Virus genome (UHGV): UHGV-2078504
Reading direction: 5' to 3' (one strand)
DNA: 27,255 bases
Source: a virus
The notes below the pieces were generated by a model. It searched no databases, had not been told where the DNA came from, and saw only the letters and a program-made list of their open reading frames with translations. Below are positions 1,739 through 25,536 of this stretch, piece after piece. Numbering within the stretch: position 1 is the stretch's first letter; the number at the start of each line of letters is the position of its first letter. Position numbers and translations under genes: made by a program.

Positions 1739-1935
1739 TACTGGCTGCGACATTTTTGAATAAAAGCGTCGACATTTCGGCGCTCATAACGAACTACTTT
1801 TGCACTGAAACGAATTGGTGCCAGGATAGCCCGATGACGATGCTTAATATTCCACTCACATAGCGTTTTCTGTGTAATACCTAACTTTTGGCATACTTCA
1901 TCCGGGGTGAGTAAATCGTCGGGTTTCTCGCTCAT
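1735..1935 (-). CDS. AlpA/excisionase-like small DNA-binding protein (Xis or transcriptional regulator)
   Basis: 66-aa ORF, LLTPDEVCQKLGITQKTLCEW helix-turn-helix typical of the AlpA/Xis family; sits beside the integrase and is start/stop-coupled to the upstream helicase gene. Confidence 0.7.
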   Translation of the reverse strand: MSEKPDDLLTPDEVCQKLGITQKTLCEWNIKHRHRAILAPIRFSAKVVRYERRNVDAFIQKCRSQY

Positions 1936-3326
1936 GCTATACCTCTCTTTTTCATGGCATCGAGCAGGATGTCCTGCACTGTTCGTTTTGAGTTGCGCCG
2001 CTCCATCACCATTTCGTCCATAGTGTCGGCAGCAATAATGTGGTGAATAAATACCGGACGATTGTGTCCGGCCTGTATCTGTCTGGTTGGGCCGATACGT
2101 TCAATAATTTGCTGATACTGCTCCAGGTCCCACCAATGTGAGAAAAATACCAGTATGTTTCCGCCGTCCTGCATGTTCAGACCGTGGCCCGCGCTGGCTG
2201 GGTGTGCAAAGAGAACAGGAATCTTTCCGGAATTCCAGTCACGTAGTGTCTGTGGATCCTGGTCGAGGTGACGACCGCGAGGAAATGCTTTAAGCAAGCG
2301 TTCAAGATCGTGTTTCCAGTGATAAGCAACCAGCACAGGTGCGCCAGCTGCTTCGGTCAGTATGCTGTCCAGCGCCTGTAGTTTGGTGTCATGCAGTTCT
2401 GACCAACTTCCGGTGTCATCTGTGTATACTGCGCCGCTGGCGATTTGCAGACACTTCAGTGTCTTTGCCGCGGCGTTCGGTGCTTCGATGCCTTCGCCAT
2501 TCAGCTCGAGGAACATTTCCTTTTCCATTTCACGATACTGCTGACGGGCCTTCGGCGGCATATCCACGCGGATTACGTTATGGATGGGGTCTTTGATATC
2601 GAACCAGTCGGCCGCATCCAGCGAGAGGGTCACATCGGCTAATGCTCGCTGTATTTCACCCTGTGAGTGAGCAAAAGGTTCCAGTTTAGTCCAGCTCTGT
2701 CCCGGAAACTGTATCGAGTTGAACCAGCGTGAGGTAAACGCGCCGTAAGTGCGCCCGAGACGTTGCCCTTGGTCCACAAACCACGATTGTCCCCACAAAT
2801 CTACCAGGCCGTTCGGTGCTGGCGTACCGGTGAGATTTATCCAGCGCCGGACATACTTATGCGCCACTTTGCCCAGCGCCGCCGCGCGCTTACCACCACC
2901 TCGCAGCCGGAAGGATTTTAGCCGGGTGCTTTCATCTGGAATGACAGTTCCGAACGGCCATCGTTCTCCCAATTCTTCAACCAGCCAGACAAGGTTATCG
3001 TAGTTGATGGTGAACACGCTCGCGTTGCTGTTCGCCAGCGCCGTAGAGCGCGCTTTGGCGTTACCGATGATCGGCTGTACCTCAATATTACGCAGATGCC
3101 CCCATTTAACAGCTTCATCAGGCCAGGTGCTTGCTGCAACGCGTAGCGGCGCGAGGACCAGCGCGGGGTGTGTTTCTGCTCCAGCCATGAAAAGATCTTC
3201 CAGCGTGGTGAGTGTCGCTACGGTTTTACCCATCCCCATCCCTGCCCAGATGTTGCCGCGCAGAATGTCGGTTTGGTGATTGATTATGAGGTTTTGATAA
3301 AGTCGGGGGTGGAATATGTTATTCAT
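1932..3326 (-). CDS. SNF2-family DNA helicase/ATPase
   Basis: 464-aa ORF with Walker A GMGMGKT, DEST (DExx-like) motif II, LTGTP and a C-terminal helicase region (GHGLNMQ). Confidence 0.8.
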   Translation of the reverse strand: MNNIFHPRLYQNLIINHQTDILRGNIWAGMGMGKTVATLTTLEDLFMAGAETHPALVLAPLRVAASTWPDEAVKWGHLRNIEVQPIIGNAKARSTALANSNASVFTINYDNLVWLVEELGERWPFGTVIPDESTRLKSFRLRGGGKRAAALGKVAHKYVRRWINLTGTPAPNGLVDLWGQSWFVDQGQRLGRTYGAFTSRWFNSIQFPGQSWTKLEPFAHSQGEIQRALADVTLSLDAADWFDIKDPIHNVIRVDMPPKARQQYREMEKEMFLELNGEGIEAPNAAAKTLKCLQIASGAVYTDDTGSWSELHDTKLQALDSILTEAAGAPVLVAYHWKHDLERLLKAFPRGRHLDQDPQTLRDWNSGKIPVLFAHPASAGHGLNMQDGGNILVFFSHWWDLEQYQQIIERIGPTRQIQAGHNRPVFIHHIIAADTMDEMVMERRNSKRTVQDILLDAMKKRGIA

Positions 3327-3390: not shown

Positions 3391-4188
3391 ATGCCCCTGG
3401 CAAAAATACTTACAAAACAAGTTTCTTTATTAACTGTTTTTTCAGCGTTAGCTTATGCGATGGCATATTCTTTTCAGAAAGGTGTTGCATCGTATTATGG
3501 CTATCCAGCCCTTTTTATTAAAATAGATTTAAATACGCTATTGTATTCGGCTGTATGGCTTTTGTTTTTTAGTTTTTTATTTCTCGGTGCCTTATACGCG
3601 ACATTGATGTTTGATTTGAAAGGGAAATATTATGTTCCATTTATTATATTTATAGTGGTTATGCTAATACCTAATTTTTACATAATAGGATTTCATTGGC
3701 CTTTTGGTTATTTCTCCGAAACCTCTGTGATGAGTGTTGGAGATATTTTATTATTTGCTCTGCTTTTGTTGAATTACCACAATGCGGTGTCCGCGTCAAT
3801 CCATAGTAAGAGACACGAACATCATATGGATAGCATTAGAAAGTTTGGGAGGCTTGCAGAGTATAAAGACGTATTTTATTATATCGATTTAAAAATCCTA
3901 AAATCAGCTTTTCCTTTAGGGGTGATGACATTATTGATATTGAGCTATACCTTCGGGAAGGTTACTGCATTTAAAAATAACGAATATTATATGGTAGATG
4001 GTAGTAATACTAAAGTGTTGCTCAATTCATTTGGTAGTGGTTTTGTTGTTGGTGATTGTGAGTCCAATAGCGCAAAATTTGAATTTGTTAATGATTTAAA
4101 AGGGATGAAATTCACAGTTATGTCCTCTAAAAAGGAAATAGCTAAATTAAAAGAGTGTTTCGAAACACGTGTTAAAAATACGGATTAA
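3391..4188 (+). CDS. Hypothetical AT-rich membrane protein (moron; N-terminal multi-TM region plus C-terminal soluble domain)
   Basis: 265-aa ORF with GGAGG Shine-Dalgarno 5-6 nt upstream; several hydrophobic helices (VSLLTVFSALAYAMAY, LLYSAVWLLFFSFLFLGALYATLMF, VPFIIFIVVMLIPNFYIIGF, ILLFALLLLNY); strongly AT-rich compared with flanking genes; opposite strand to the surrounding operon. Confidence 0.65.
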   Translation: MPLAKILTKQVSLLTVFSALAYAMAYSFQKGVASYYGYPALFIKIDLNTLLYSAVWLLFFSFLFLGALYATLMFDLKGKYYVPFIIFIVVMLIPNFYIIGFHWPFGYFSETSVMSVGDILLFALLLLNYHNAVSASIHSKRHEHHMDSIRKFGRLAEYKDVFYYIDLKILKSAFPLGVMTLLILSYTFGKVTAFKNNEYYMVDGSNTKVLLNSFGSGFVVGDCESNSAKFEFVNDLKGMKFTVMSSKKEIAKLKECFETRVKNTD

Positions 4189-4200
4189 AGCATAAGTCTT

Positions 4201-4488
4201 TTATCTTTTATTGCGGCTTAAAATAATTTCCTCCAGATTTTTGCTATCCAGCACCACCACGGTAAAGCCCAGCTCGCGCAGCCGCTCGTGCTCGCGCAAC
4301 TGGTCGGCGCGTGGTGCTTTGCCGGGTGCTTTGCATTCAACGAAAACAAGACGGCCGCCGGGTAGCAGAACAATGCGATCCGGTACCGAGCGGCGACCGG
4401 GAGATACGAACTTAAAGGCCACACCGCCAGCCTTTTTCACTTCAGCGACGAGGTGCTTTTCGATAAGGCTCTCACGTTCATAAGACAT
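4201..4488 (-). CDS. VRR-NUC domain nuclease
   Basis: 95-aa ORF with PD-(D/E)xK-like core (PDRIVLLPGGRLVFVECKAPGK); GC-rich like the core operon; family commonly partners SNF2 helicases in phage replication modules. Confidence 0.7.
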   Translation of the reverse strand: MSYERESLIEKHLVAEVKKAGGVAFKFVSPGRRSVPDRIVLLPGGRLVFVECKAPGKAPRADQLREHERLRELGFTVVVLDSKNLEEIILSRNKR

Positions 4489-4548: not shown

Positions 4549-5577
4549 ATGTCACGAATCTTATTTCCCTCTTCATGTAATCCTGAAAAGATATTTAATT
4601 TTTGCAATGAAATTGAAAAACATTCAGGTCAACAGCAAATAACAATCGATTTTTCGCATATGGGAAGGATTGAACCATTTACAATGGTTTATGTTGCTAA
4701 GCATATTCGAGACTTCCATCGAAAACAGAAAAAGAACATTGATGGTTTTAAACTTTTTTGTAGCGGGCATGAGAATAAGGATTATGCCGCAAATATGGCA
4801 TTCTTTCGAGCCTTCGGGTTAAAGCATGGCCGTGAACCGGGATGTACAGATGGAAATAATAATTTTGTTCCATTTACAATTCTTCGTGTTCAAACAGTTA
4901 TAGATGAAGCTAACGATAAATATACTGAGGTGCAAGAGATAGTTGAGGAACGATCTGGTAAATTAGCAAAGATTCTTGCTCGCCAAGAAGAAGGCGACCT
5001 CATTGATGCTTTGACATTTTCTATTAGGGAAATTATGCGTAATGTTGTGGAACATAGTGATTCAAAGGTGATTGAATATTGTGCACAGTATTGGCCTTCT
5101 TATGACCGTGTTGAAATAACAATTTCTGATAATGGTATAGGAATGAAAAAATCTCTATCGAAGAACCCTTATATAGAAGCTGATAATGATTCTGAAGCCA
5201 TTCAGTTAGCGTTAATGCCATCTATTTCTAGTAAAAATTTTAAGGGGGCGAGAATCAATACAAGAAATCCTTGGCATAATTCGGGATTTGGCCTTTATAT
5301 GATCAGCCGTATATGTAAACTTGGCGGTAGTTTTCTTATTTGTAGCGGTGACCATGCAATATATCTAGATGAACACGGAAAGAAGCATATAGAGTTAGGT
5401 CATTATCATGAAGGAACTGTCGTTAGAATGGTGTTGAATACTAAAAAACTTGGTTCCTTAAGCTCAATGCTTACGCAGTTTAAGGAGGATGGCTACAAAA
5501 TAGCTGCAGAAATAAAACATACTGGAGTTTATACAGCATCAGCTGCTTCGCAGATGTTATCTAGGGATTTTAAGTGA
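4549..5577 (+). CDS. Hypothetical protein with C-terminal GHKL/histidine-kinase-like ATPase domain (moron)
   Basis: 342-aa AT-rich ORF; C-terminal half carries N-box-like REIMRNVVEHS, G1 box ISDNGIGM and G2 box NSGFGLYMISRI characteristic of HATPase_c (histidine kinase/anti-sigma-factor kinase/GHKL) folds; N-terminal ~110 aa of unknown function. Confidence 0.7.
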   Translation: MSRILFPSSCNPEKIFNFCNEIEKHSGQQQITIDFSHMGRIEPFTMVYVAKHIRDFHRKQKKNIDGFKLFCSGHENKDYAANMAFFRAFGLKHGREPGCTDGNNNFVPFTILRVQTVIDEANDKYTEVQEIVEERSGKLAKILARQEEGDLIDALTFSIREIMRNVVEHSDSKVIEYCAQYWPSYDRVEITISDNGIGMKKSLSKNPYIEADNDSEAIQLALMPSISSKNFKGARINTRNPWHNSGFGLYMISRICKLGGSFLICSGDHAIYLDEHGKKHIELGHYHEGTVVRMVLNTKKLGSLSSMLTQFKEDGYKIAAEIKHTGVYTASAASQMLSRDFK

Positions 5578-5584
5578 CTTTGTA

Positions 5585-7648
5585 TTACTCCTTACGGTAG
5601 TGGTACGCCTCAAAGCCGCCAGCATTCAGCGGAATATCGGGTGCCCATTCGGGGTTAGTGGAGAGAAGCGCGGAAAGCGCTTTATCGTTGAAATCTTCTG
5701 TGTCAGGTGCTTCGGTGATCACCTCGTCGTGTACCGTCAGCACAATGCTGTAACCGGCATCTTCGATAAGCGGCATGTTTCCGGCCAGAATGTCGCGGGC
5801 GGCCGCCTGGGTGATGTTCTCCACCAGCTTTCCGCCGTAGGTTTTGAGTCGTTGCCATTTACGCGAATAAGAGTTAACCCCCATGTAGGTGATATTCCCT
5901 TTTTCGATAACCGGAGACGGGTAGCATACAGCGCGTCCGGATGGTAGCTGTATGCGCAGCCACGCGCCATCGCGGCGGATTTTAAGATAACCGCAATACA
6001 ATGTTTTTTGCGGTGTGGCGATTGCAGTGCGGACGGTGCGCTCCAGTTCGTACCAGAAATCACAGGTCGCGGGATGCGCCCGGCGCCAGAGACGTTTAAG
6101 TGAGTCGCAGGCGATAAATACCCGTTCAGAAAGCCCGTAGGTTGACTTGCGTTTAACCGATTCGTCGTACCAGCTTTTCGCCTCGCGGATAACATCGCGG
6201 GGAATGTTTGGTAGTGCGGCGTTCGCCAGCTCGTCGAGATCGAGACCGTAAACCAGTGCAAAAGTGATGAAGGCCGACACACCACCACCATAACCCAGAC
6301 CGAGTTCCATGACTTTACCGATCTGACGCATGTGTTTATCAACATCATCTGGTGCAATATCGAAAGCTTTTGCATACGCCAGTTTATATAAGTCCGGACC
6401 CGTTCCGGCGTCGTACTCTCTGAATGCATTCAGTTTCCATTCTTCTCCCGCCAGCCATGCCAGCATACGGCCTTCAATGTTCGACAAGTCACTTACCACC
6501 AGCTTTTTGCCTGTTGGCGCGATAATGCAGCCACGTAACGCTGAACTGGTTAGTTCCATGATATTGTCAAACAGCAGGTCTGCACATCCGGCTTTCAGTG
6601 CTTCGATGCCTTCGTCTATTTGTTCCTGTTTTAGTGAAGGGCGGGGAAGGTTCTGGGGCTGGAATAGCCGTCCGGCCCAACGACCGGTACGTGACGCCCC
6701 GCAGAACTGTAGCGTACCGCGTAAGCGCCCGTCGTGGCTTACGCCTTTCATCAGTGCCTTGTATTTACTGGTGCTGGTAGTACTGGCCTGCAGGCGGATA
6801 GCCAGCAGTTCTTTCACGGCAGATGGTAAATCGGGGTCGGCAATACGACGTTCCAGAGTACTGCGTTGCATGTCTGGTAGCTCCACACCGTAGGATTCAA
6901 CAATGTGCTTAATCAACGCGTCTCGTTGTGTGGCTGCCTGCACTTCGCCATCAGTCATTTCCTGTGTACGCTTTGCCAGGCGCTTTTGTTCCTGGTCTAC
7001 CACGTCGATCGCAGCGCGTGCGAGTTCCACGTCCATGCAGACGCCCCGGTCATTGATCTGCTGATCACGATGCCAGAGCGCCAGTTCTGTCCCCTGATAA
7101 TTCCACTTCGGCAGACGTTTATAGACTTCGCGCATTGCCTCGATATCCAGTCCGGCGTAAGCAACAAAGCGCCGCCATTCTTCCGGGTGGGTTTTGCTGG
7201 TGGCCCGGCGCAGTTTGCTGTTTTTCGGGCGTGGCTTACAGAACAGCTGGATCAGCGCTTTACCTTCTTTGTCCTTCGCTTTGTCTTGCGGGACGCCTAG
7301 TACTTCGCAGAGTTCCCCCAGAGACCCCGGGAGACCGTGCGCCAGCGCCTGCACCATTGTGTCGCGCCAACGTTCGACTGGCGGTGCTAGGCGCGGCATT
7401 GCATAACGCAGGACGGTGCGGTCGAAGTGAGAGTTATGAAAATAAAGTAGGGTTTCAGGGGCTGCGATTGCTTCGTATAAGCCGTGTGGAATACCACCAC
7501 CGGCAGTGATATCCCACACGTTTACTGGTCCGTCGTTGATAGCCCATGCGAAAAGCATCACTTCAACGCCTTCGGCATACGCATGGGTACCGTTCGTAAT
7601 AGGGATTTCGCAATAGGTTTCCAGGTCGCCCCATAGTATATTGGACAT
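5585..7648 (-). CDS. Family A DNA polymerase with N-terminal 3'-5' exonuclease domain
   Basis: 687-aa ORF; Exo I-like WGDLETYCE; polymerase motif [12 protein letters not shown], motif [13 protein letters not shown], motif C LTVHDEV. Confidence 0.85.
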
Positions 7649-7694
7649 GTGTTTACCTTGGTTTTTATTCTATTAACTGATTAAAAGATTAATT

Positions 7695-8324
7695 ATGCAT
7701 ATGATCCAATACTTGATTGACCATACAGAGCATCTGGAGAAAATAGCTGGATATATTTTTTCATGTTTGATTGTTATGGGAGTCTGGATAAGAAAGATCA
7801 TTTTTAATTATAAGTATAAAGAGCCTAAATATGTCAAGAAGTTAATTTTATATTTAATTAAGTATGAACGTTATCTGGATAAGGAGGATAAGAAAGCCAT
7901 AGAAAAAAGAATAAATGATAAAATTATTCGTGATGCGCTGAAATTGCAATCCTCTTATAACCGAAGTGATGTTATTTACATTTGCAATAGATTAGAAAAA
8001 AGACAGTATATAAATCAGTTGATTAAGCTTCAGAATTATATAGAGAAAGATAACGGAGTGTTTTTTATTAATGTTGATTTTTCAGGTTTTTTATTTATTG
8101 TTAGTCGTCTGTTTTCCTTTCTGTGTTTTGTGCTGTTTACCCTTTTTTCTATTATCTGCATTATTTCCATAGGGCAAAATGAAGGCCTTTTAAATTATCT
8201 TGTGTATATGGTTATGATAATAGTTTTAGAGACTGTTGGTTTTTGGATGTATGATACTTTCCCGTCTAAGAAAAAGATCTGTGAACTAAATAAAGAATTG
8301 AGAAAGATTAAGATTCCTGAGTGA
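7695..8324 (+). CDS. Hypothetical AT-rich membrane protein (moron)
   Basis: 209-aa, very AT-rich ORF on the opposite strand to the operon; N-terminal TM helix (IAGYIFSCLIVMGVWI), lysine-rich soluble segment, then two or three C-terminal TM helices (FLFIVSRLFSFLCFVLFTLFSIICIISIG, LVYMVMIIVLETVGFWMY). Start could be 7695 or 7701. Confidence 0.6.
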   Translation: MHMIQYLIDHTEHLEKIAGYIFSCLIVMGVWIRKIIFNYKYKEPKYVKKLILYLIKYERYLDKEDKKAIEKRINDKIIRDALKLQSSYNRSDVIYICNRLEKRQYINQLIKLQNYIEKDNGVFFINVDFSGFLFIVSRLFSFLCFVLFTLFSIICIISIGQNEGLLNYLVYMVMIIVLETVGFWMYDTFPSKKKICELNKELRKIKIPE

Positions 8325-8342: not shown

Positions 8343-8361
8343 GCCCGGTGTTTAACCGGGC
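8343..8361. terminator. Stem-loop between convergent genes (possible bidirectional terminator)
   Basis: GCCCGGT-gttta-ACCGGGC perfect 7-bp inverted repeat between the end of the 7695-8324 gene and the end of the 8377-8925 gene; no clear U-tract on either strand. Confidence 0.3.
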
Positions 8362-8376
8362 GTCTATGAAGTAGGG

Positions 8377-8925
8377 TTAAATTAGTGCTTCAGCATCAGC
8401 ACCTTCGCTGATATCGTCGAAATCGTCAGCGCTTGCCACTCCGCCGCCAGCGAATGCATCGCCGTCTCGCAGGAACTGGACTCCGCCGAGTGAGGCATTA
8501 ATGCGTTTACCGAAATTATTGTCCTGTGCCCAGATATCGATAACGGCGTTTACATAGCACCCTGCATAGGGACGTCCGTCAGCCTGAATAAGTGGCGAAC
8601 GATCGCGATCAAGAACAGCTGGGCGCGCTTTGTTAGCAGCATTCAGGAAGAAATTACCGGGGAAGCCTTCATACTCTGCTTTTTCATCACCATCATGCAG
8701 GCACAGATTGAGTTTTTTCTCCAGCTGGTTATAAATGGGCTCCCACTTCTCTCCCCATTTTTCCTTCGCTACCTGCTTCATAGCTTTACGGATTTCTTCC
8801 AGTTGTGGGTGTTTGGGTGACATTAAAAATACTGCGGAGAAACGTGGATCGCCTTCGCCGTTTACAGTTTTAGCTTCAAACAGAGACGGGAAGGCCAGAC
8901 GAACATTGTTCAGCTTCAGTTTCAT
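8377..8925 (-). CDS. DUF2815-like phage protein, putative ssDNA-binding protein
   Basis: 182-aa ORF in replication module beginning MKLKLNNVRLAFPSLFE; acidic C-terminal tail ...DDFDDISEGADAEALI resembling SSB/gp2.5-type interaction tails. Family assignment is from memory. Confidence 0.55.
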   Translation of the reverse strand: MKLKLNNVRLAFPSLFEAKTVNGEGDPRFSAVFLMSPKHPQLEEIRKAMKQVAKEKWGEKWEPIYNQLEKKLNLCLHDGDEKAEYEGFPGNFFLNAANKARPAVLDRDRSPLIQADGRPYAGCYVNAVIDIWAQDNNFGKRINASLGGVQFLRDGDAFAGGGVASADDFDDISEGADAEALI

Positions 8926-8940
8926 GGGTATTTCCTTAAA

Positions 8941-10242
8941 TCAGATGAGGTCTGCGGTTAGCGTATCGTCGGATACGTCGTCGAAATCATTTACAGGGTT
9001 GATATTGAGTGCGGGGCGTGGGTCTGACTCGGGAACGACGGTGGGTTTACCATCAGCTCGTGTTATCAGTGCCTCGACTTTTGACCAACGGCGCGGACTG
9101 GCCTTTTTGATAAGTTTTTCGGCTTTTGTGGGACTAATAAGTTTAAAGTCGAATACTTCTTCAGTTTTGTACCTGAACTGGTCCTTCAGAAGTGCGCGAG
9201 CTGCCTCTTCATCACTCCAGGCCCGGTTACCTTGTTTTCCTGTTACCAGTTTAAACCCCGGTACCGGATGTCCGGCATTGAGTTCATTGTGAACCCGGTC
9301 CCGTACTGCCTTTAGCCAGGATTCAATAAAGTCGGCCTGGCTATAGATCTCCGCAAGCTGCTCAATGGTTAACAGAGGTACACGTGCGCTGGCATTGGTG
9401 ATTATTTCGCTGACAGGCTTTGTCAGATCTTCAAAGTCGCTGGCCGCTGTTTGTAAATGCTGCATTTTCTGGGCAGTGCAAATAGCTTTTGCTTTACAGA
9501 AGCGGCACTGTTTTTCTCCAGGTATGAAGTTTTCCAGCGGTAGTGTCTCAATGCCTTCGCATTCAGCAATATTGAGAACAAGGATCGCACTGGTTGCGGC
9601 CTCCTGTGCCCGTTCACCGAAAGACTGAAGTTCCTGTACGGTTAATGACCATTCTGAAACGTGGTTGAGCCTTGGCTGGTGAATAAATAATCTTACAGTC
9701 TCAAAGTCATACAGCATGCTGAATTGTTCGAGCGCACCCAGAGCATACAGTTGTAGTTGCTCATTTTGTTCTGCATCAATGCGGACGCCTTTGCCATATT
9801 TCAGGTCGTGGATTTGTAATTCGTTACCAGCGATGATTATGCCGTCGGCAGTTCCGAAAGATTCTTCCACCCCCGTTATATGTGAGAAATCAACACGTTG
9901 TTCAACCAATAGTTCATTATTCTGTGCAAGAGTCCAGACCGTATCAACATACCGGCCAACGGCTTCGACCATTTCATCATCCACCTGTGGGCCAGATGTA
10001 TTATCAGGATTTTCGCGAAGGGGGTATGAGCCGAGAAACATAGAAACATTGCATCCGGCGTAGTGTTCCGGGTGGCTTTGCCTGTTTCGTAGAACTTTTT
10101 CAGCAAGCGCGTGCGCTGCAGTGCCCTCGATTGCAAAAGTTGTTTCTTTATCCGGTTGTGTGGCCTCCAGCGCCAGACTTCCTGGGCAGCGCATCCATCG
10201 ATGCGCTGATGATGGAGAAAGTTGTGCATGAACGTCTGGCAT
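8941..10242 (-). CDS. DUF2800-like PD-(D/E)xK nuclease with Cas4-like cysteine cluster
   Basis: 433-aa ORF; N-terminal [15 protein letters not shown], nuclease-like core (IHDLKYGKG), C-terminal cysteines [10 protein letters not shown]; acidic C-terminal tail ...[15 protein letters not shown]. Confidence 0.65.
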
Positions 10243-11517: not shown

Positions 11518-12087
11518 ATGTCTGAAGAAAAAGGAATTCTTTCCCGGATAACTGAATCGTTATCCGGCGTGGGAGGAGCAATTAAAAGCGCGGTTGGAGC
11601 AGCAAGAGAGATTCAGAATCTGACTGTCGACTATGCAGTTAAAGAGAAGACGCACATCTTACTCGATAAGCTAATGGATGTTCAGATGCAGCAAATGTCG
11701 CTTCAGGAGCTGCTGATTGCGGCTAAGGAGAAAATTGTTGAACTGGAAAATGAGAAAGTAAAGCAAGAGAACTGGGCCGCTGAAGCGGCGAGCTATGAAC
11801 TTTACCAGCCTATGCGGGGTACTCTGGTCTATCGCAGCAAGCTTTCTGCAGATGCTGACCAATCTCCGGTTTATATTTGTCCCAATTGCTACGAGCAAAA
11901 GAGAAAATCTATATTGCAAGCGGAAGGTCTGGTTACTAAGCCAGGCCTTGGGCGAGCCGTTAATATGGTTTGTTCGTACTGTAGGGCTTCCTATCTGTTC
12001 AACCGAAATGCTTTAGAGGCCCGACTGCCTTCTGAAGATGAAAATCCGGGGAAGGCAATCACGGATTACGATCCTTACAACCAGTAA
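11518..12087 (+). CDS. Hypothetical coiled-coil/zinc-ribbon protein (immunity-region moron)
   Basis: 189-aa ORF on opposite strand to repressor and early-left genes; central coiled-coil segment (QELLIAAKEKIVELENEKVKQEN) and CPNC...CSYC four-cysteine zinc-ribbon-like motif. Confidence 0.6.
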   Translation: MSEEKGILSRITESLSGVGGAIKSAVGAAREIQNLTVDYAVKEKTHILLDKLMDVQMQQMSLQELLIAAKEKIVELENEKVKQENWAAEAASYELYQPMRGTLVYRSKLSADADQSPVYICPNCYEQKRKSILQAEGLVTKPGLGRAVNMVCSYCRASYLFNRNALEARLPSEDENPGKAITDYDPYNQ

Positions 12088-16694: not shown

Positions 16695-16795
16695 GTATTC
16701 AGGGCCCACCGAAGGACGGCTCATAACCCAATCCTACGGGCGTATACGCAGGGCCCGCCTTTCAACAACACCCCGTAATGGCGGAGGTGGGAAGT

Positions 16796-17137
16796 ATGAA
16801 AATGCACAATGCTCCTCATTCCTGGCCTGACTTACTGGAACTCTTACAAAGTTGGTGGCGTGGAGATACGCCGTTGGGCGCAGTGGTTATGTCAATTGTT
16901 ATGGCTGGCTTGCGCATTGCCTATTTTGGCGGTGGCGGCGGCTGGAAACGAAAAACGCTTGAGATTTTGCTCTGTGGTGCTCTGACGCTGACCTTTGCAT
17001 CCGCTCTTGAGTATGTTGGATGGCCTAAATCTCTTTCTGTTGCCATTGGTGGTGGTGTTGGGCTGATCGGTGTCGATGCTATTCGTGGGGCTGCAATGCG
17101 AGTAATCGGTAACAAGTTTGGTGGCTCTAAGGAGTAA
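16796..17137 (+). CDS. Holin (probable dual-start motif MKM)
   Basis: ORF with three hydrophobic segments immediately upstream of the endolysin; GGAGGTGGG Shine-Dalgarno precedes ATG-AAA-ATG (16796 and 16802), reminiscent of the lambda S dual-start arrangement. The longest ORF starts at 16778. Confidence 0.7.
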   Translation: MKMHNAPHSWPDLLELLQSWWRGDTPLGAVVMSIVMAGLRIAYFGGGGGWKRKTLEILLCGALTLTFASALEYVGWPKSLSVAIGGGVGLIGVDAIRGAAMRVIGNKFGGSKE

Positions 17138-17140
17138 TTC

Positions 17141-17617
17141 ATGCAGACACTAAATTCCCAACGTAAAGCTTTCCTGGATATGGTGGCATGGTCAGAAGGA
17201 ACGGATAACGGGCGACAACCGACACGTAATCACGGTTATGACGTTATCGTCGGAGGTGAGTTGTTCACTGATTACTCCGATCACCCTCGCAAACTTGTCA
17301 CGCTAAACCCGAAGCTTAAATCAACAGCTGCAGGCCGGTATCAGCTTCTTTCACGCTGGTGGGATGCCTACCGCAAGCAGCTTGGCCTGAAAGATTTTTC
17401 GCCAGAAAATCAGGACGCTGTGGCGCTGCAGCAGATTAAAGAGCGTGGCGCTTTACCGATGATTGACCGTGGCGATATTCGTCAGGCAATCGACCGTTGC
17501 AGCAATATCTGGGCGTCGTTACCTGGTGCAGGTTACGGTCAGTATGAACATAAAATCGGTGACCTGATTTCCAGGTTTAAAGATGCTGGTGGGGTGGTAA
17601 ATGAAGCTGACTTATAA
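17141..17617 (+). CDS. R: Endolysin, lambda R-type lytic transglycosylase
   Basis: 158-aa product is near-identical over most of its length to phage lambda R as recalled (NSQRKAFLDMVAWSEGTDNGRQPTRNHGYDVIVGGELFTDYSDHPRKLVTLNPKLKST...). Confidence 0.9.
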   Translation: MQTLNSQRKAFLDMVAWSEGTDNGRQPTRNHGYDVIVGGELFTDYSDHPRKLVTLNPKLKSTAAGRYQLLSRWWDAYRKQLGLKDFSPENQDAVALQQIKERGALPMIDRGDIRQAIDRCSNIWASLPGAGYGQYEHKIGDLISRFKDAGGVVNEADL

Positions 17618-18125
17618 GATTGTCATCGCGGCATTTTTCTTCTCTGTCTTTGGGGCGCTCGTCTGGTCTGCAAACCATTACCACAGCAAGTATCAGGCAG
17701 AAAAGTTGCGGGCTGATAAAGCGGAAGGTGAAGCTGAATATCAAGGGAAAGTGATAGCTAATCAGGCATTAAACTTCAATCGTTTTAACCAGATAGCAGA
17801 AAACGCAAGCCGATTAAATTCTCTGGTCGACATCGATCACGAGAAGACAGTCATCAAATACCGTGAGGTTCTGCTCCGTGAAAAGAACTGTGATTTCCCT
17901 GTTCCTGTTGATATTGCTGTCGGGTTGCTCAACTACGCGAACCGTTTACGCGCCAGCGCATTGCACGCCGATTCCGGGGACATTGACTCAGTCGGTGATC
18001 GTGCCACTACCACCAGAACGTTGACATATTGCCAGGCTGTTCTGTGGATTAACCCACTGTTGGCAGCCATCGAGAAGGCGAATAACCAGTTGGCTGGTGT
18101 CCGACAAATAGAACAGTCCCGGTAA
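17601..18125 (+). CDS. Rz: Rz-like inner-membrane spanin (i-spanin)
   Basis: 174-aa ORF overlapping the endolysin stop, N-terminal TM helix (IVIAAFFFSVFGALVWS) then coiled-coil periplasmic domain; contains an embedded +1-frame lipoprotein ORF. Confidence 0.75.
   Translation: MKLTYKIVIAAFFFSVFGALVWSANHYHSKYQAEKLRADKAEGEAEYQGKVIANQALNFNRFNQIAENASRLNSLVDIDHEKTVIKYREVLLREKNCDFPVPVDIAVGLLNYANRLRASALHADSGDIDSVGDRATTTRTLTYCQAVLWINPLLAAIEKANNQLAGVRQIEQSR
17878..18024 (+). CDS. Rz1: Rz1-like outer-membrane lipoprotein spanin (o-spanin), embedded in Rz in the +1 frame
   Basis: Hand translation from GTG 17878: (M)KRTVISLFLLILLSGCSTTRTVYAPAHCTPIPGTLTQSVIVPLPPER, stop TGA 18022-18024; lipobox LLSGC, proline-rich mature part; GAGG 9 nt upstream. 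Confidence 0.6.
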   Translation: MKRTVISLFLLILLSGCSTTRTVYAPAHCTPIPGTLTQSVIVPLPPER

Positions 18126-25521: not shown

Positions 25522-25536
25522 NNNNNNNNNNNNNNN
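25522..25536. other. Assembly gap (15 N)
   Basis: Run of 15 n characters; true length unknown. Confidence 0.95.

What the first reader, a model, noticed from the sequence alone, without database searches (positions are those of the whole stretch)
7695..8324. Third AT-rich membrane-protein moron between DNA polymerase and DUF2815-like genes
A 209-aa ORF on the plus strand, extremely AT-rich (lysine/isoleucine/tyrosine-rich product), with one N-terminal and two or three C-terminal hydrophobic helices and a charged central segment (…KEDKKAIEKRINDKIIRDALKLQSSYNRSDVIYICNRLEKRQYINQLIKLQNYIEKDNG…). It is convergent with the next operon gene and followed by a perfect 7-bp stem-loop (8343-8361). Three independent low-GC, opposite-strand insertions within about 5 kb suggest this operon's intergenic junctions are cargo hotspots.
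Basis: partly seen in the sequence, partly recalled or inferred. Interest (0 to 1): 0.6.

Follow-up and report, generated by a model that had tools for sequence, protein, structure and literature searches.

The report
Orphan membrane-protein cargo in prophage hotspot
A real, conserved but uncharacterised gene for a small three-helix inner-membrane protein sits in a swap-prone slot of an E. coli prophage where related prophages carry known anti-phage genes, so it is a credible but unproven new single-gene phage-exclusion candidate.

Summary
Window 7695-8324 (+) is an intact 209-codon ORF at 29% GC in a 49% GC E. coli prophage. It runs convergent to the DUF2815 gene, and a perfect 7-bp hairpin lies at 8343-8361.

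The product is predicted to be a three-helix inner-membrane protein: N-terminus out, TM1, a cytoplasmic helical domain of about 90 aa, a TM2-TM3 hairpin, then a conserved cytoplasmic tail. It has no match in Pfam, NCBIfam or PADLOC, no significant fold match, and only a PHROG family of unknown function.

The "cargo hotspot" reading is supported. Of 5,426 complete E. coli genomes, 159 carry this pol/DUF2815 junction. Of those, 67 hold this gene, 13 a very distant allele of the same family, 58 an Nmad5-containing insert and 5 a SIR2 defence candidate. Homology breaks exactly at the pol start codon.

Family members travel alone in four kinds of mobile element: P2-like and lambdoid prophages, an ICE and integrase islands. 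They often lie beside dGTPase, Septu-like or restriction-modification genes.

The most likely function is a lysogen-expressed, membrane-level anti-phage protein that works like P22 SieA. Homology to SieA was tested and rejected. The function itself is inferred, not shown.

The parts
7695..8324 (+). Cargo gene: 209-aa predicted three-helix inner-membrane protein (family phrog_10579, function unknown; RefSeq hypothetical protein WP_089626772)
   Evidence: ORF listing. PGAP annotates the same frame. phrog_10579 hit at E = 1e-106. Full-length homologues at 23-43% identity. Intact in all 7 copies read, with pN/pS about 0.2-0.4 where synonymous differences exist.
7743..7805 (+). TM1 (about residues 17-37). 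Residues 1-16 are predicted periplasmic and carry a weakly conserved Y..H.E motif.
   Evidence: Hydropathy and charge distribution. AF2 helix 11-37. Alignment.
7806..8075 (+). Cytoplasmic domain (about residues 38-127): four short helices plus a beta-hairpin, net positive. Conserved motif I-x-Y-L-x(5)-Y-L-x(3)-D-K.
   Evidence: 21 K/R against 12 D/E. AF2 elements H45-60, H63-82, H90-99, H103-111, E116-125. Conservation map.
8088..8258 (+). TM2-TM3 hairpin (about residues 132-160 and 165-188) with a 4-residue periplasmic loop. A conserved Arg/Lys lies at the start of TM2 (R138) and a conserved Glu inside TM3 (E179).
   Evidence: Hydropathy. AF2. Conservation.
8259..8321 (+). Lys-rich cytoplasmic tail with the most conserved motif of the family: P-x(4)-I-x(3)-N-x-E-L-x-K. 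N199 and L202 are invariant.
   Evidence: Alignments A1 and A2. Conservation map.
7642..7694 (+). Putative promoter and leader of the cargo. The -35-like TGGACA (7642-7647) lies in the first codons of pol, on the backbone. The -10-like TATTCT (7666-7671) lies in cargo-specific DNA. The Shine-Dalgarno sequence is weak.
   Evidence: Consensus scan, 9 of 12 matches, but no more sites than in shuffles. Left homology breakpoint lies exactly at 7648/7649. Inference only.
8343..8361 (.). Perfect 7-bp hairpin between the convergent stop codons. It belongs to the DUF2815 3' flank and is shared with relatives that carry other cargo.
   Evidence: Sequence. Fold -20.4 kcal/mol, z = -3.1. The same hairpin follows DUF2815 in L006 and L007, and different hairpins occupy that place in L003, L004 and L005. 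No terminator-like site found.
5585..7648 (-). Left anchor gene of the hotspot: family A DNA polymerase
   Evidence: Pfam DNA_pol_A. Conserved at 96-100% identity in 159 E. coli genomes.
8377..8925 (-). Right anchor gene of the hotspot: DUF2815 / Enc34-type ssDNA-binding protein
   Evidence: Pfam PF10991, E = 7.6e-44. Conserved anchor.

Best explanation
The gene is a self-contained accessory module in one of three high-turnover slots of the early (replication) operon of an E. coli temperate phage.

It encodes a small inner-membrane protein. The predicted order is: N-terminus in the periplasm, TM1, a cytoplasmic helical domain of about 90 aa, a TM2-TM3 hairpin, and a conserved cytoplasmic tail helix.

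The proposed mechanism has three inferred steps:
1. The gene is transcribed on its own from the strand opposite the repressed lytic operon, so the protein is made in the lysogen.
2. The protein sits in the inner membrane.
3. There it protects the lysogen against other phages at the membrane step of infection. Most likely it blocks passage of the incoming genome or its conduit across the inner membrane, as P22 SieA or T4 Imm do.

What is shown: the gene is real and conserved, the membrane topology is predicted consistently, the slot is a hotspot, and the gene moves alone and keeps company with defence genes. What is inferred: expression in the lysogen, an anti-phage role, and the entry-block mechanism.
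For: **A real gene under constraint**
- Chance probability of the open frame is about 3e-9.
- It is intact in every copy read, with pN/pS about 0.2-0.4.
- Full-length homologues reach down to 23% identity in Serratia, Rahnella, Xenorhabdus and metagenomes.
- It stays intact in ETEC H10407, where the neighbouring pol is frameshifted.

**Hotspot**
- 159 of 5,426 E. coli genomes carry the junction. 67 hold this gene, 13 a distant allele of the same family (hhalign probability 96.5%), 58 an Nmad5 insert and 5 a SIR2 protein.
- Homology breaks exactly at the pol ATG.

**Defence company**
- The alternative occupant SIR2 matches PADLOC PDC-S25 (E = 7e-157).
- Neighbouring slots hold TIR (PDC-S35) and PDC-S42.
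- Homologues lie next to a dGTPase (E = 6e-144), restriction-modification and GAPS4-like genes in a lambdoid prophage. They also lie next to Septu-like PtuA/PtuB and type I R-M genes in a Serratia integrase island.
- One homologue occupies the gpS/gpV slot of P2-like prophages.

**Stand-alone module**
- No neighbour is conserved across nine contexts.
- It occurs with four different cargo combinations in the other two slots.

**Architecture like a known exclusion protein**
- P22 SieA is a 162-164-aa inner-membrane protein with three predicted membrane helices and a conserved cytoplasmic C-terminal motif. It blocks DNA injection (PMC10883804, read).
- Here the topology follows the positive-inside rule, and the AF2 model has pLDDT 75.6.
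Against: - No expression data exist for this gene.
- The promoter-like match is no better than chance and the Shine-Dalgarno sequence is weak.
- A 29% GC gene in E. coli may be silenced by H-NS (established knowledge, not tested here).
- There is no sequence or fold relationship to any characterised exclusion or defence protein.
- The most conserved parts are cytoplasmic, whereas an entry block might be expected to depend on periplasmic or membrane contacts.
- Some Xenorhabdus species keep a homologue at a fixed chromosomal site between an SLT gene and thrS, with no mobile element in view. That would also fit a housekeeping-like membrane role.
- Guilt by association is only suggestive. The same slots also hold non-defence genes such as BRO-N, Rha, Arc and Nmad5.
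Confidence: 0.35

Rival explanations
1. Abortive-infection protein. The cytoplasmic domain senses a phage product. The TM2-TM3 hairpin then oligomerises and depolarises or permeabilises the inner membrane, killing the infected cell before phage release.
For: - The hotspot and defence-neighbourhood evidence is the same as for the main explanation.
- The most conserved residues are cytoplasmic (the tail helix and the I-x-Y-L...D-K motif), and a Glu is conserved inside TM3.
- Rousset et al. note that membrane proteins in known defence systems are usually thought to be suicide effectors (PMC9122126).
Against: - No partner sensor gene is present, and there is no similarity to SLATT, 2TM or other PADLOC effectors.
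- The polar residues of TM2 are not conserved among homologues, which argues against a hydrophilic pore lining (by inspection).
- A constitutively made pore-former with no antitoxin would be costly to the host.
Confidence: 0.2
2. Accessory membrane protein with a role other than phage defence. Examples are immunity to a pore-forming bacteriocin or tailocin, entry exclusion against conjugative elements, or modulation of a host transporter or envelope stress.
For: - Homologues occur on an ICE near TraG_N.
- They occur in Xenorhabdus islands beside tail-fibre assembly and lectin genes, and at a fixed chromosomal site in several Xenorhabdus species.
- Small multi-helix inner-membrane proteins encoded on the opposite strand are also typical of colicin immunity genes (own knowledge).
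Against: - No toxin or bacteriocin gene is linked in any of the nine contexts.
- The only TraS-like signal is one family member at E = 0.1.
- Most contexts are phage slots beside defence genes.
Confidence: 0.2
3. A phage-serving function during lytic growth. Examples are a lysis-timing or antiholin-like factor, or a membrane anchor for the replication proteins encoded on either side.
For: - The gene lies inside the replication module.
- There is a faint holin-family match, phrog_2508, at E = 0.36.
Against: - It is on the opposite strand to the operon, is strongly atypical in composition, and is replaced by unrelated genes in more than half of related prophages.
- The prophage has its own holin, endolysin and spanin cassette at 16778-18125.
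- Homologues sit in quite different modules of other phages: the tail genes of P2-like phages and upstream of Q in a lambdoid phage.
Confidence: 0.1
4. A silent or decaying passenger: foreign DNA kept only because it lies in a tolerant slot.
For: - Composition is extremely AT-rich and promoter and ribosome-binding signals are weak.
- The family is very small and has no known function.
Against: - The frame is intact in all copies, including 67 E. coli genomes and three induced phages.
- Length and motifs are conserved at 23-43% identity across genera.
- pN/pS is below 1.
Confidence: 0.05

Closest known systems
P22 SieA superinfection-exclusion protein (Pfam PF26849)
   Same: - Both are single prophage genes with their own transcription unit.
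- Both are small inner-membrane proteins with TM1, a cytoplasmic segment, two further membrane helices and a short conserved cytoplasmic tail (PMC10883804).
- Both tails contain an aromatic-Pro ... N-K-E motif (by eye).
   Different: - There is no detectable homology. No Pfam hit was found and hhalign probability is 0.2-0.6%.
- 15 of 100 block-shuffled controls score as high.
- The cytoplasmic domain here is about twice as long.
- No exclusion phenotype has been tested.
Prophage diversity hotspots of anti-phage systems (P2/P4 hotspots, Rousset et al. 2022, PMC9122126)
   Same: - The locus is small (0.65-1.7 kb) with high turnover, lying between two conserved phage genes.
- Occupants include SIR2 and TIR defence candidates.
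   Different: - It lies in a different phage family (DNA pol A / DUF2815 / DUF2800 / VRR-NUC / SNF2 replication module).
- There are three slots, interleaved within one operon rather than next to cos.
- Many occupants are encoded antisense to the operon.
- I found no paper describing these slots or these phages. The held library is incomplete.
Morons of temperate phages (for example HK97 gp15, P2 orf30; own knowledge of Hendrix/Juhala and Cumby et al.)
   Same: - It is an extra gene of atypical composition placed between two backbone genes.
- It is plausibly expressed from the prophage.
- One homologue sits at the gpS/gpV position of P2-like phages, where P2 carries orf30 (the orf30 position is from memory).
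   Different: - No relative with an empty junction was seen, so simple insertion is not demonstrated.
- Its own promoter and terminator are not demonstrated.
- No similarity to any phage record outside three E. coli phages was found by tblastn.
MotA/TolQ/ExbB stator-like proteins, including ZorA
   Same: - The topology and spacing are the same: N-terminus out, TM1, cytoplasmic domain of about 90-100 aa, TM2-TM3 hairpin, cytoplasmic tail, and an acidic or polar residue inside TM3.
- Foldseek lists ZorA and ExbB among its weak matches.
   Different: - Foldseek E-values are 2-6, which is not significant.
- hhalign probability is about 0.1%, and 57 of 100 shuffles score as high.
- No ExbD/TolR/ZorB-like partner gene is present in any context.

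Membership tests
P22 SieA family (PF26849) | Sequence match to the family profile | tested here: not met
   No Pfam hit at E <= 10 for any of 15 family members. hhalign of family profile A2 against SieA profile A3 gives probability 0.2%. The relaxed collinear alignment scores 16.7, and 15 of 100 block shuffles reach that.
P22 SieA family (PF26849) | Inner-membrane protein with three membrane helices and a cytoplasmic C-terminal motif | tested here: met
   By prediction only: hydropathy and the positive-inside rule, the AF2 model and the conserved tail motif. Localisation was not measured.
P22 SieA family (PF26849) | Blocks DNA delivery by superinfecting phage without killing the cell | not testable with these tools
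   Needs phage challenge, K+ efflux or DNA-entry assays.
Prophage diversity hotspot (as defined in PMC9122126) | Small locus (about 1-5 kb) with high turnover of content between two conserved phage genes | tested here: met
   The anchors, pol and DUF2815, are 96-100% identical in 159 genomes. The intervening 652-1669 bp holds at least six unrelated contents.
Prophage diversity hotspot (as defined in PMC9122126) | Occupants include validated or candidate anti-phage systems | tested here: met
   SIR2 matches PDC-S25 (E = 7e-157). TIR matches PDC-S35 (E = 2e-108). PDC-S42 matches at E = 6e-40. All lie in the three slots. These are PADLOC candidates, not validated systems.
Moron (Hendrix/Juhala sense; own knowledge) | Nucleotide composition distinct from the flanking phage genes | tested here: met
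   GC 0.289 against 0.49-0.54.
Moron (Hendrix/Juhala sense; own knowledge) | Own promoter and terminator, expressed from the prophage | tested here: inconclusive
   One 9-of-12 promoter-like site lies upstream, but the number of sites equals the shuffle expectation. No terminator-like site was found. A hairpin is present but is shared with other cargo types.
Known anti-phage defence families (PADLOC-DB 2.0.0) | Match to any defence-protein profile | tested here: not met
   No family at E <= 1 for this protein, and none at E <= 0.01 for the distant allele L005:7476-8072.
MotA/TolQ/ExbB (PF01618) and ZorA | Sequence or fold similarity to the stator family | tested here: not met
   hhalign probability about 0.1% against E. 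coli TolQ and ExbB, and 57 of 100 shuffles score as high. Foldseek E = 2.3-6.
Holins | Match to a holin family and a position in the lysis cassette | tested here: not met
   Only phrog_2508 at E = 0.36. The lysis cassette is elsewhere, at 16778-18125.

The most novel reading that the evidence does not exclude
The protein founds a previously unrecognised family of single-gene, inner-membrane anti-phage proteins. The family is defined by the I-x-Y-L...D-K cytoplasmic motif, a Glu inside TM3 and a P-x4-I-x3-N-x-E-L-x-K tail. It moves on its own between accessory slots of at least four kinds of mobile element. In addition, the replication operon of this E. coli prophage family contains three undescribed defence hotspots, whose antisense cargo may use a -35 element embedded in the first codons of the polymerase gene.
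Probability: 0.45. Interest if true: 0.6.

Novelty: new member of a known kind. Interest (0 to 1): 0.5.

Why it matters
If the protein does exclude phages, it adds a compact single-gene membrane defence with no relatives among known systems. It would be easy to test in E. coli, and it is present in pathogenic lineages (O55:H7, O103:H2, ETEC H10407).

Independently of that, the three slots in this prophage's replication operon are a ready-made list of candidate defence genes: the GHKL ATPase, the 265-aa membrane protein, DUF6338, and the 89-aa, 199-aa and 229-aa proteins. All can be found by anchoring on pol, VRR-NUC and DUF2815. This is the strategy Rousset et al. proposed for finding new systems.

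If the gene has no anti-phage effect, it remains an ordinary hypothetical prophage gene.

Tried and rejected
**Homology to P22 SieA: rejected**
- The profiles do not match, and the score is no better than for shuffles.

**Homology to TolQ/ExbB/ZorA: rejected**
- This was suggested by weak Foldseek rows and the identical topology.

**Fold searches: uninformative**
- Foldseek against BFVD and PDB gave nothing at E <= 0.001.
- The afdb50 library was unavailable.

**Family and sequence searches: no significant match beyond one PHROG family of unknown function**
- Pfam, NCBIfam, PADLOC and PDB sequence searches gave nothing meaningful. PHROGs gave only phrog_10579, a family of unknown function.
- Weak DUF4231 and TraS hits came from single members at E >= 0.1 and were ignored.

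**Other checks**
- A holin role was rejected.
- The hairpin as the cargo's own intrinsic terminator was rejected: it has no U-tract, and the same hairpin flanks other cargo.
- A functional link among the three AT-rich cargo genes of the window was rejected: they assort independently.

**Searches that found little or nothing**
- Literature searches for the phage names, protein accessions and the PHROG id found nothing. The search on DUF2815/DUF2800 prophages found nothing relevant.
- Plasmids: no copy.
- The genome-contig scan with the full alignment failed for lack of conserved columns. The narrower alignment gave only two loci.

Full report
**1. What is there**

The window is an E. coli temperate prophage. 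In strain PS1Thumoskin9 an identical copy sits next to yfhL/shoB and begins with a tyrosine integrase. Three records of induced phages (vB_EcoM-606R2, -689R2, -611R5) carry the same region at 99.6% identity.

The early operon runs on the minus strand. Its genes, in order of increasing window coordinate, are:
- SNF2 helicase, 1932-3326
- VRR-NUC nuclease, 4201-4488
- family A DNA polymerase, 5585-7648
- DUF2815 / Enc34-type ssDNA-binding protein, 8377-8925
- DUF2800 PD-(D/E)XK nuclease, 8941-10242

Three plus-strand ORFs of low GC interrupt this operon:

| ORF | Length | GC |
|---|---|---|
| 3391-4188 | 265 aa | 0.33 |
| 4549-5577 | 342 aa | 0.36 |
| 7695-8324 (the finding) | 209 aa | 0.29 |

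The window as a whole has GC 0.49.

With the ORF's own base composition, a stop-free run of 209 codons has a probability of about 3e-9. The other five frames hold 8-27 stops. The 7-bp hairpin at 8343-8361 is exact and the spacer folds well, at -20.4 kcal/mol with z = -3.1.

**2. The protein**

Hydropathy gives three membrane segments, at about 17-37, 132-160 and 165-188. The charge distribution follows the positive-inside rule:
- The N-terminal 16 residues are net negative.
- Residues 36-127 hold 21 K/R against 12 D/E.
- The tail hold 7 K/R against 4 D/E.

The predicted topology is therefore N-terminus out and C-terminus in.

An AlphaFold2 model built on a 15-sequence alignment has mean pLDDT 75.6 and pTM 0.59. 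It shows these elements:
- TM1 (helix 11-37)
- four short cytoplasmic helices
- a beta-hairpin (116-125)
- TM2 (132-160)
- TM3 (165-188)
- a tail helix (192-202)

There is no match in Pfam, NCBIfam, PADLOC or PDB sequences. The only family hit is phrog_10579, of unknown function, whose profile starts at Met28. Homologues align from residue 1-4, which supports the longer start.

Fold searches returned only generic helical bundles, or rows with E above 0.6.

**3. The family**

A word-indexed search of 5.8 billion proteins found essentially one 90% cluster, with 456 member sequences from Enterobacteriaceae.

An exhaustive phmmer search of 1.84 billion representatives found 10 proteins:
- full-length relatives at 38-43% identity (P0004, P0005)
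- full-length relatives at 25-30% identity (P0007, P0008, P0010, P0011, P0012)

A profile search added a Xenorhabdus group.

The conserved features are:
- I51, Y53, L54, L61, D65 and K66 in the cytoplasmic domain
- Arg/Lys at the start of TM2
- Glu179 inside TM3
- the tail, which is the most conserved part of all: P190, I195, N199, E201, L202 and K204, with N199 and L202 invariant

Seven E. coli and phage copies are all intact. Pairs that have synonymous differences give pN/pS of 0.16-0.40, on small counts. In ETEC H10407 the neighbouring polymerase gene is frameshifted while this ORF stays intact.

This is a real protein-coding gene under constraint.

**4. The slot is a hotspot**

Among 5,426 complete E. 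coli genomes, 159 carry the pol/DUF2815 junction. Its contents are:

| Content | Genomes |
|---|---|
| This gene | 67 |
| 199-aa plus-strand membrane protein | 13 |
| Nmad5 gene plus a small plus-strand gene next to pol (89-aa two-helix protein or 229-aa protein) | 58 |
| 493-aa SIR2 protein, once disrupted by IS1 | 5 |
| BRO-N gene | at least 1 |

The 199-aa protein matches the family profile at hhalign probability 96.5% (E = 7e-10) over 190 columns. The same slot therefore holds two very divergent alleles of one family.

Homology between the variants stops exactly at the polymerase start codon (7648/7649). On the other side it stops at, or just before, a hairpin that follows the DUF2815 stop codon.

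That hairpin is nearly identical in the variants carrying this gene, BRO-N or SIR2. Different hairpins take its place in the Nmad5 and 199-aa variants. In the Nmad5 variants the hairpin lies between two genes of the same strand. Together with the absence of a U-tract, this means it is a backbone element and not this gene's own terminator.

The other two junctions vary just as much:
- SNF2/VRR-NUC holds the 265-aa membrane protein, DUF6338, a PDC-S42 cluster, Rha/Arc genes or a 305-aa TIR-like protein.
- VRR-NUC/pol holds the 342-aa GHKL ATPase, a TIR protein (PADLOC PDC-S35, E = 2e-108), DUF4406 plus ANR, or Ant.

The SIR2 occupant matches PADLOC PDC-S25 at E = 7e-157.

This gene is found with four different cargo combinations in the other two slots, so it is not part of a split multi-gene system.

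**5. Where the relatives live**

| Relative | Context |
|---|---|
| P0005 and three IMG/VR contigs | Between gpS and gpV of P2-like prophages |
| P0007 | Just upstream of antiterminator Q in a lambdoid prophage, beside a dGTPase (PADLOC E = 6e-144), a methylase with a restriction-like HNH, and a GAPS4-type nuclease |
| P0008 | Antisense between RecT and a PAPS-reductase gene on a phage contig |
| P0004 | On an element with TraG_N |
| Serratia copy | In an integrase island next to DUF6338, Septu-like PtuA/PtuB proteins and a type I R-M specificity subunit |
| P0010 | In a Xenorhabdus island with Tn3, HicAB and a Tad2-like gene |
| P0011 group | Between an SLT gene and thrS in several Xenorhabdus species |

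No neighbour recurs across these contexts. The family is a single-gene module that moves between accessory slots of phages, an ICE and islands, often beside defence genes. It was not found on plasmids.

**6. Mechanism**

Nothing measured here shows function.

The best-supported reading is a prophage-expressed inner-membrane protein that protects the lysogen from other phages. I favour an entry block of the SieA or Imm type, for three reasons:
- It needs only one small membrane protein and no sensor partner.
- P22 SieA has the same layout: 162-164 aa, three predicted helices and a conserved cytoplasmic C-terminal motif. It is necessary and sufficient to block DNA injection (PMC10883804).
- A constitutively expressed pore-former without an antitoxin would be costly.

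This is a claim that it works like SieA, not that it belongs to the SieA family. Membership was tested and failed: hhalign probability is 0.2-0.6%, and 15 of 100 block-shuffled SieA profiles score as high.

The main rival is an abortive-infection effector in which the conserved cytoplasmic parts sense infection and the TM hairpin depolarises the cell. The conserved intramembrane Glu and the cytoplasmic location of the most conserved residues fit this about as well.

Non-defence accessory roles, and a lytic-cycle role, are less likely but not excluded. They are listed among the rival explanations.

The resemblance in topology to TolQ/ExbB/ZorA was also tested and is no better than chance.

**7. 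Expression signals**

The 46-bp leader belongs to the cargo. The only promoter-like site pairs a TGGACA box inside the first codons of pol (7642-7647) with TATTCT (7666-7671). The scan found no more such sites than in shuffled sequence.

The TGGACA box lies in the conserved backbone, so it is present upstream of all plus-strand cargo variants. That is worth testing, but it is only an inference.

**8. Novelty and verdict**

The kind is known: an AT-rich membrane-protein cargo gene in a prophage diversity hotspot (PMC9122126). The family has no characterised relative. I found no paper on these slots, these phages or these accessions in the held library. The library lacks many subscription papers, including a 2025 study of E. 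coli prophage defence systems that other papers cite.

I rate the finding as a new member of a known kind, with moderate interest (0.5). It is a concrete and easily testable candidate. It also comes with a set of further candidates in the same three slots.

Noticed in passing
window 4549-5577 (+): A 342-aa AT-rich cargo protein with a GHKL/HATPase_c domain (Pfam E = 1.3e-7). It has a PADLOC hit to the N-terminal part of DrmA (E = 2.9e-8) and matches phrog_3364 (E = 2.5e-33). In relatives the same VRR-NUC/pol slot holds a TIR protein (PDC-S35), DUF4406 plus ANR, or Ant. It is a separate defence candidate.
   Followed up: partly
window 3391-4188 (+): A 265-aa multi-helix membrane protein, GC 0.33, with no family match. 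In relatives the SNF2/VRR-NUC slot it occupies holds DUF6338, a PDC-S42 three-gene cluster, Rha/Arc regulators or a 305-aa TIR-like protein.
   Followed up: partly
L005:7476-8075 (E. coli 13E0725; 13 genomes): A 199-aa membrane protein in the same slot is a very distant allele of the same family. BLASTP gives only E = 0.01, but hhalign probability is 96.5%. Two deeply diverged versions therefore compete for one slot.
   Followed up: yes
window 7642-7647, and the same position in L003-L005: A -35-like TGGACA lies inside the first codons of the polymerase gene, on the backbone, and so sits upstream of every plus-strand cargo variant. In L004 an extended -10-like TGgTATATG follows at the right spacing. 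This may be a shared promoter half-site for swapped cargo.
   Followed up: no
window 8343-8361; L003:8503-8523; L005:8060-8092: Every variant has a stable hairpin directly 3' of the DUF2815 stop codon, but three unrelated hairpin sequences occur. In the Nmad5 variants the hairpin lies between two same-strand genes, so it is probably not a full terminator.
   Followed up: partly
L019 (ETEC H10407, NC_017633.1 2985501-2988112): The DNA polymerase of this prophage is annotated as frameshifted, while the 209-aa ORF next to it is intact.
   Followed up: no
NZ_AP045766.1 1201036-1203294 (hit H106): The SIR2 cargo in the same slot is interrupted by an IS1 element in strain 23CRST009.
   Followed up: no
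window 11518-12087 (+): A 189-aa ORF with two CxxC pairs lies between the early operon and the repressor gene. It is present in some relatives (L001, L002, L006) and absent from others (L003, L004, L005, L007). This may be a fourth variable slot.
   Followed up: no
window 25522-25536: A run of 15 N in the window lies just after a GGCCCC-GAAA-GGGGCC hairpin downstream of the major capsid gene. ORF translations across it show X residues.
   Followed up: no
L025:4805-5404 and L007:3153-3773: DUF6338 proteins occur next to the family member in a Serratia defence island. They also occur as cargo in the SNF2/VRR-NUC slot of the E. coli prophage. DUF6338 may be another membrane-protein defence candidate that uses the same kinds of slot.
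   Followed up: no
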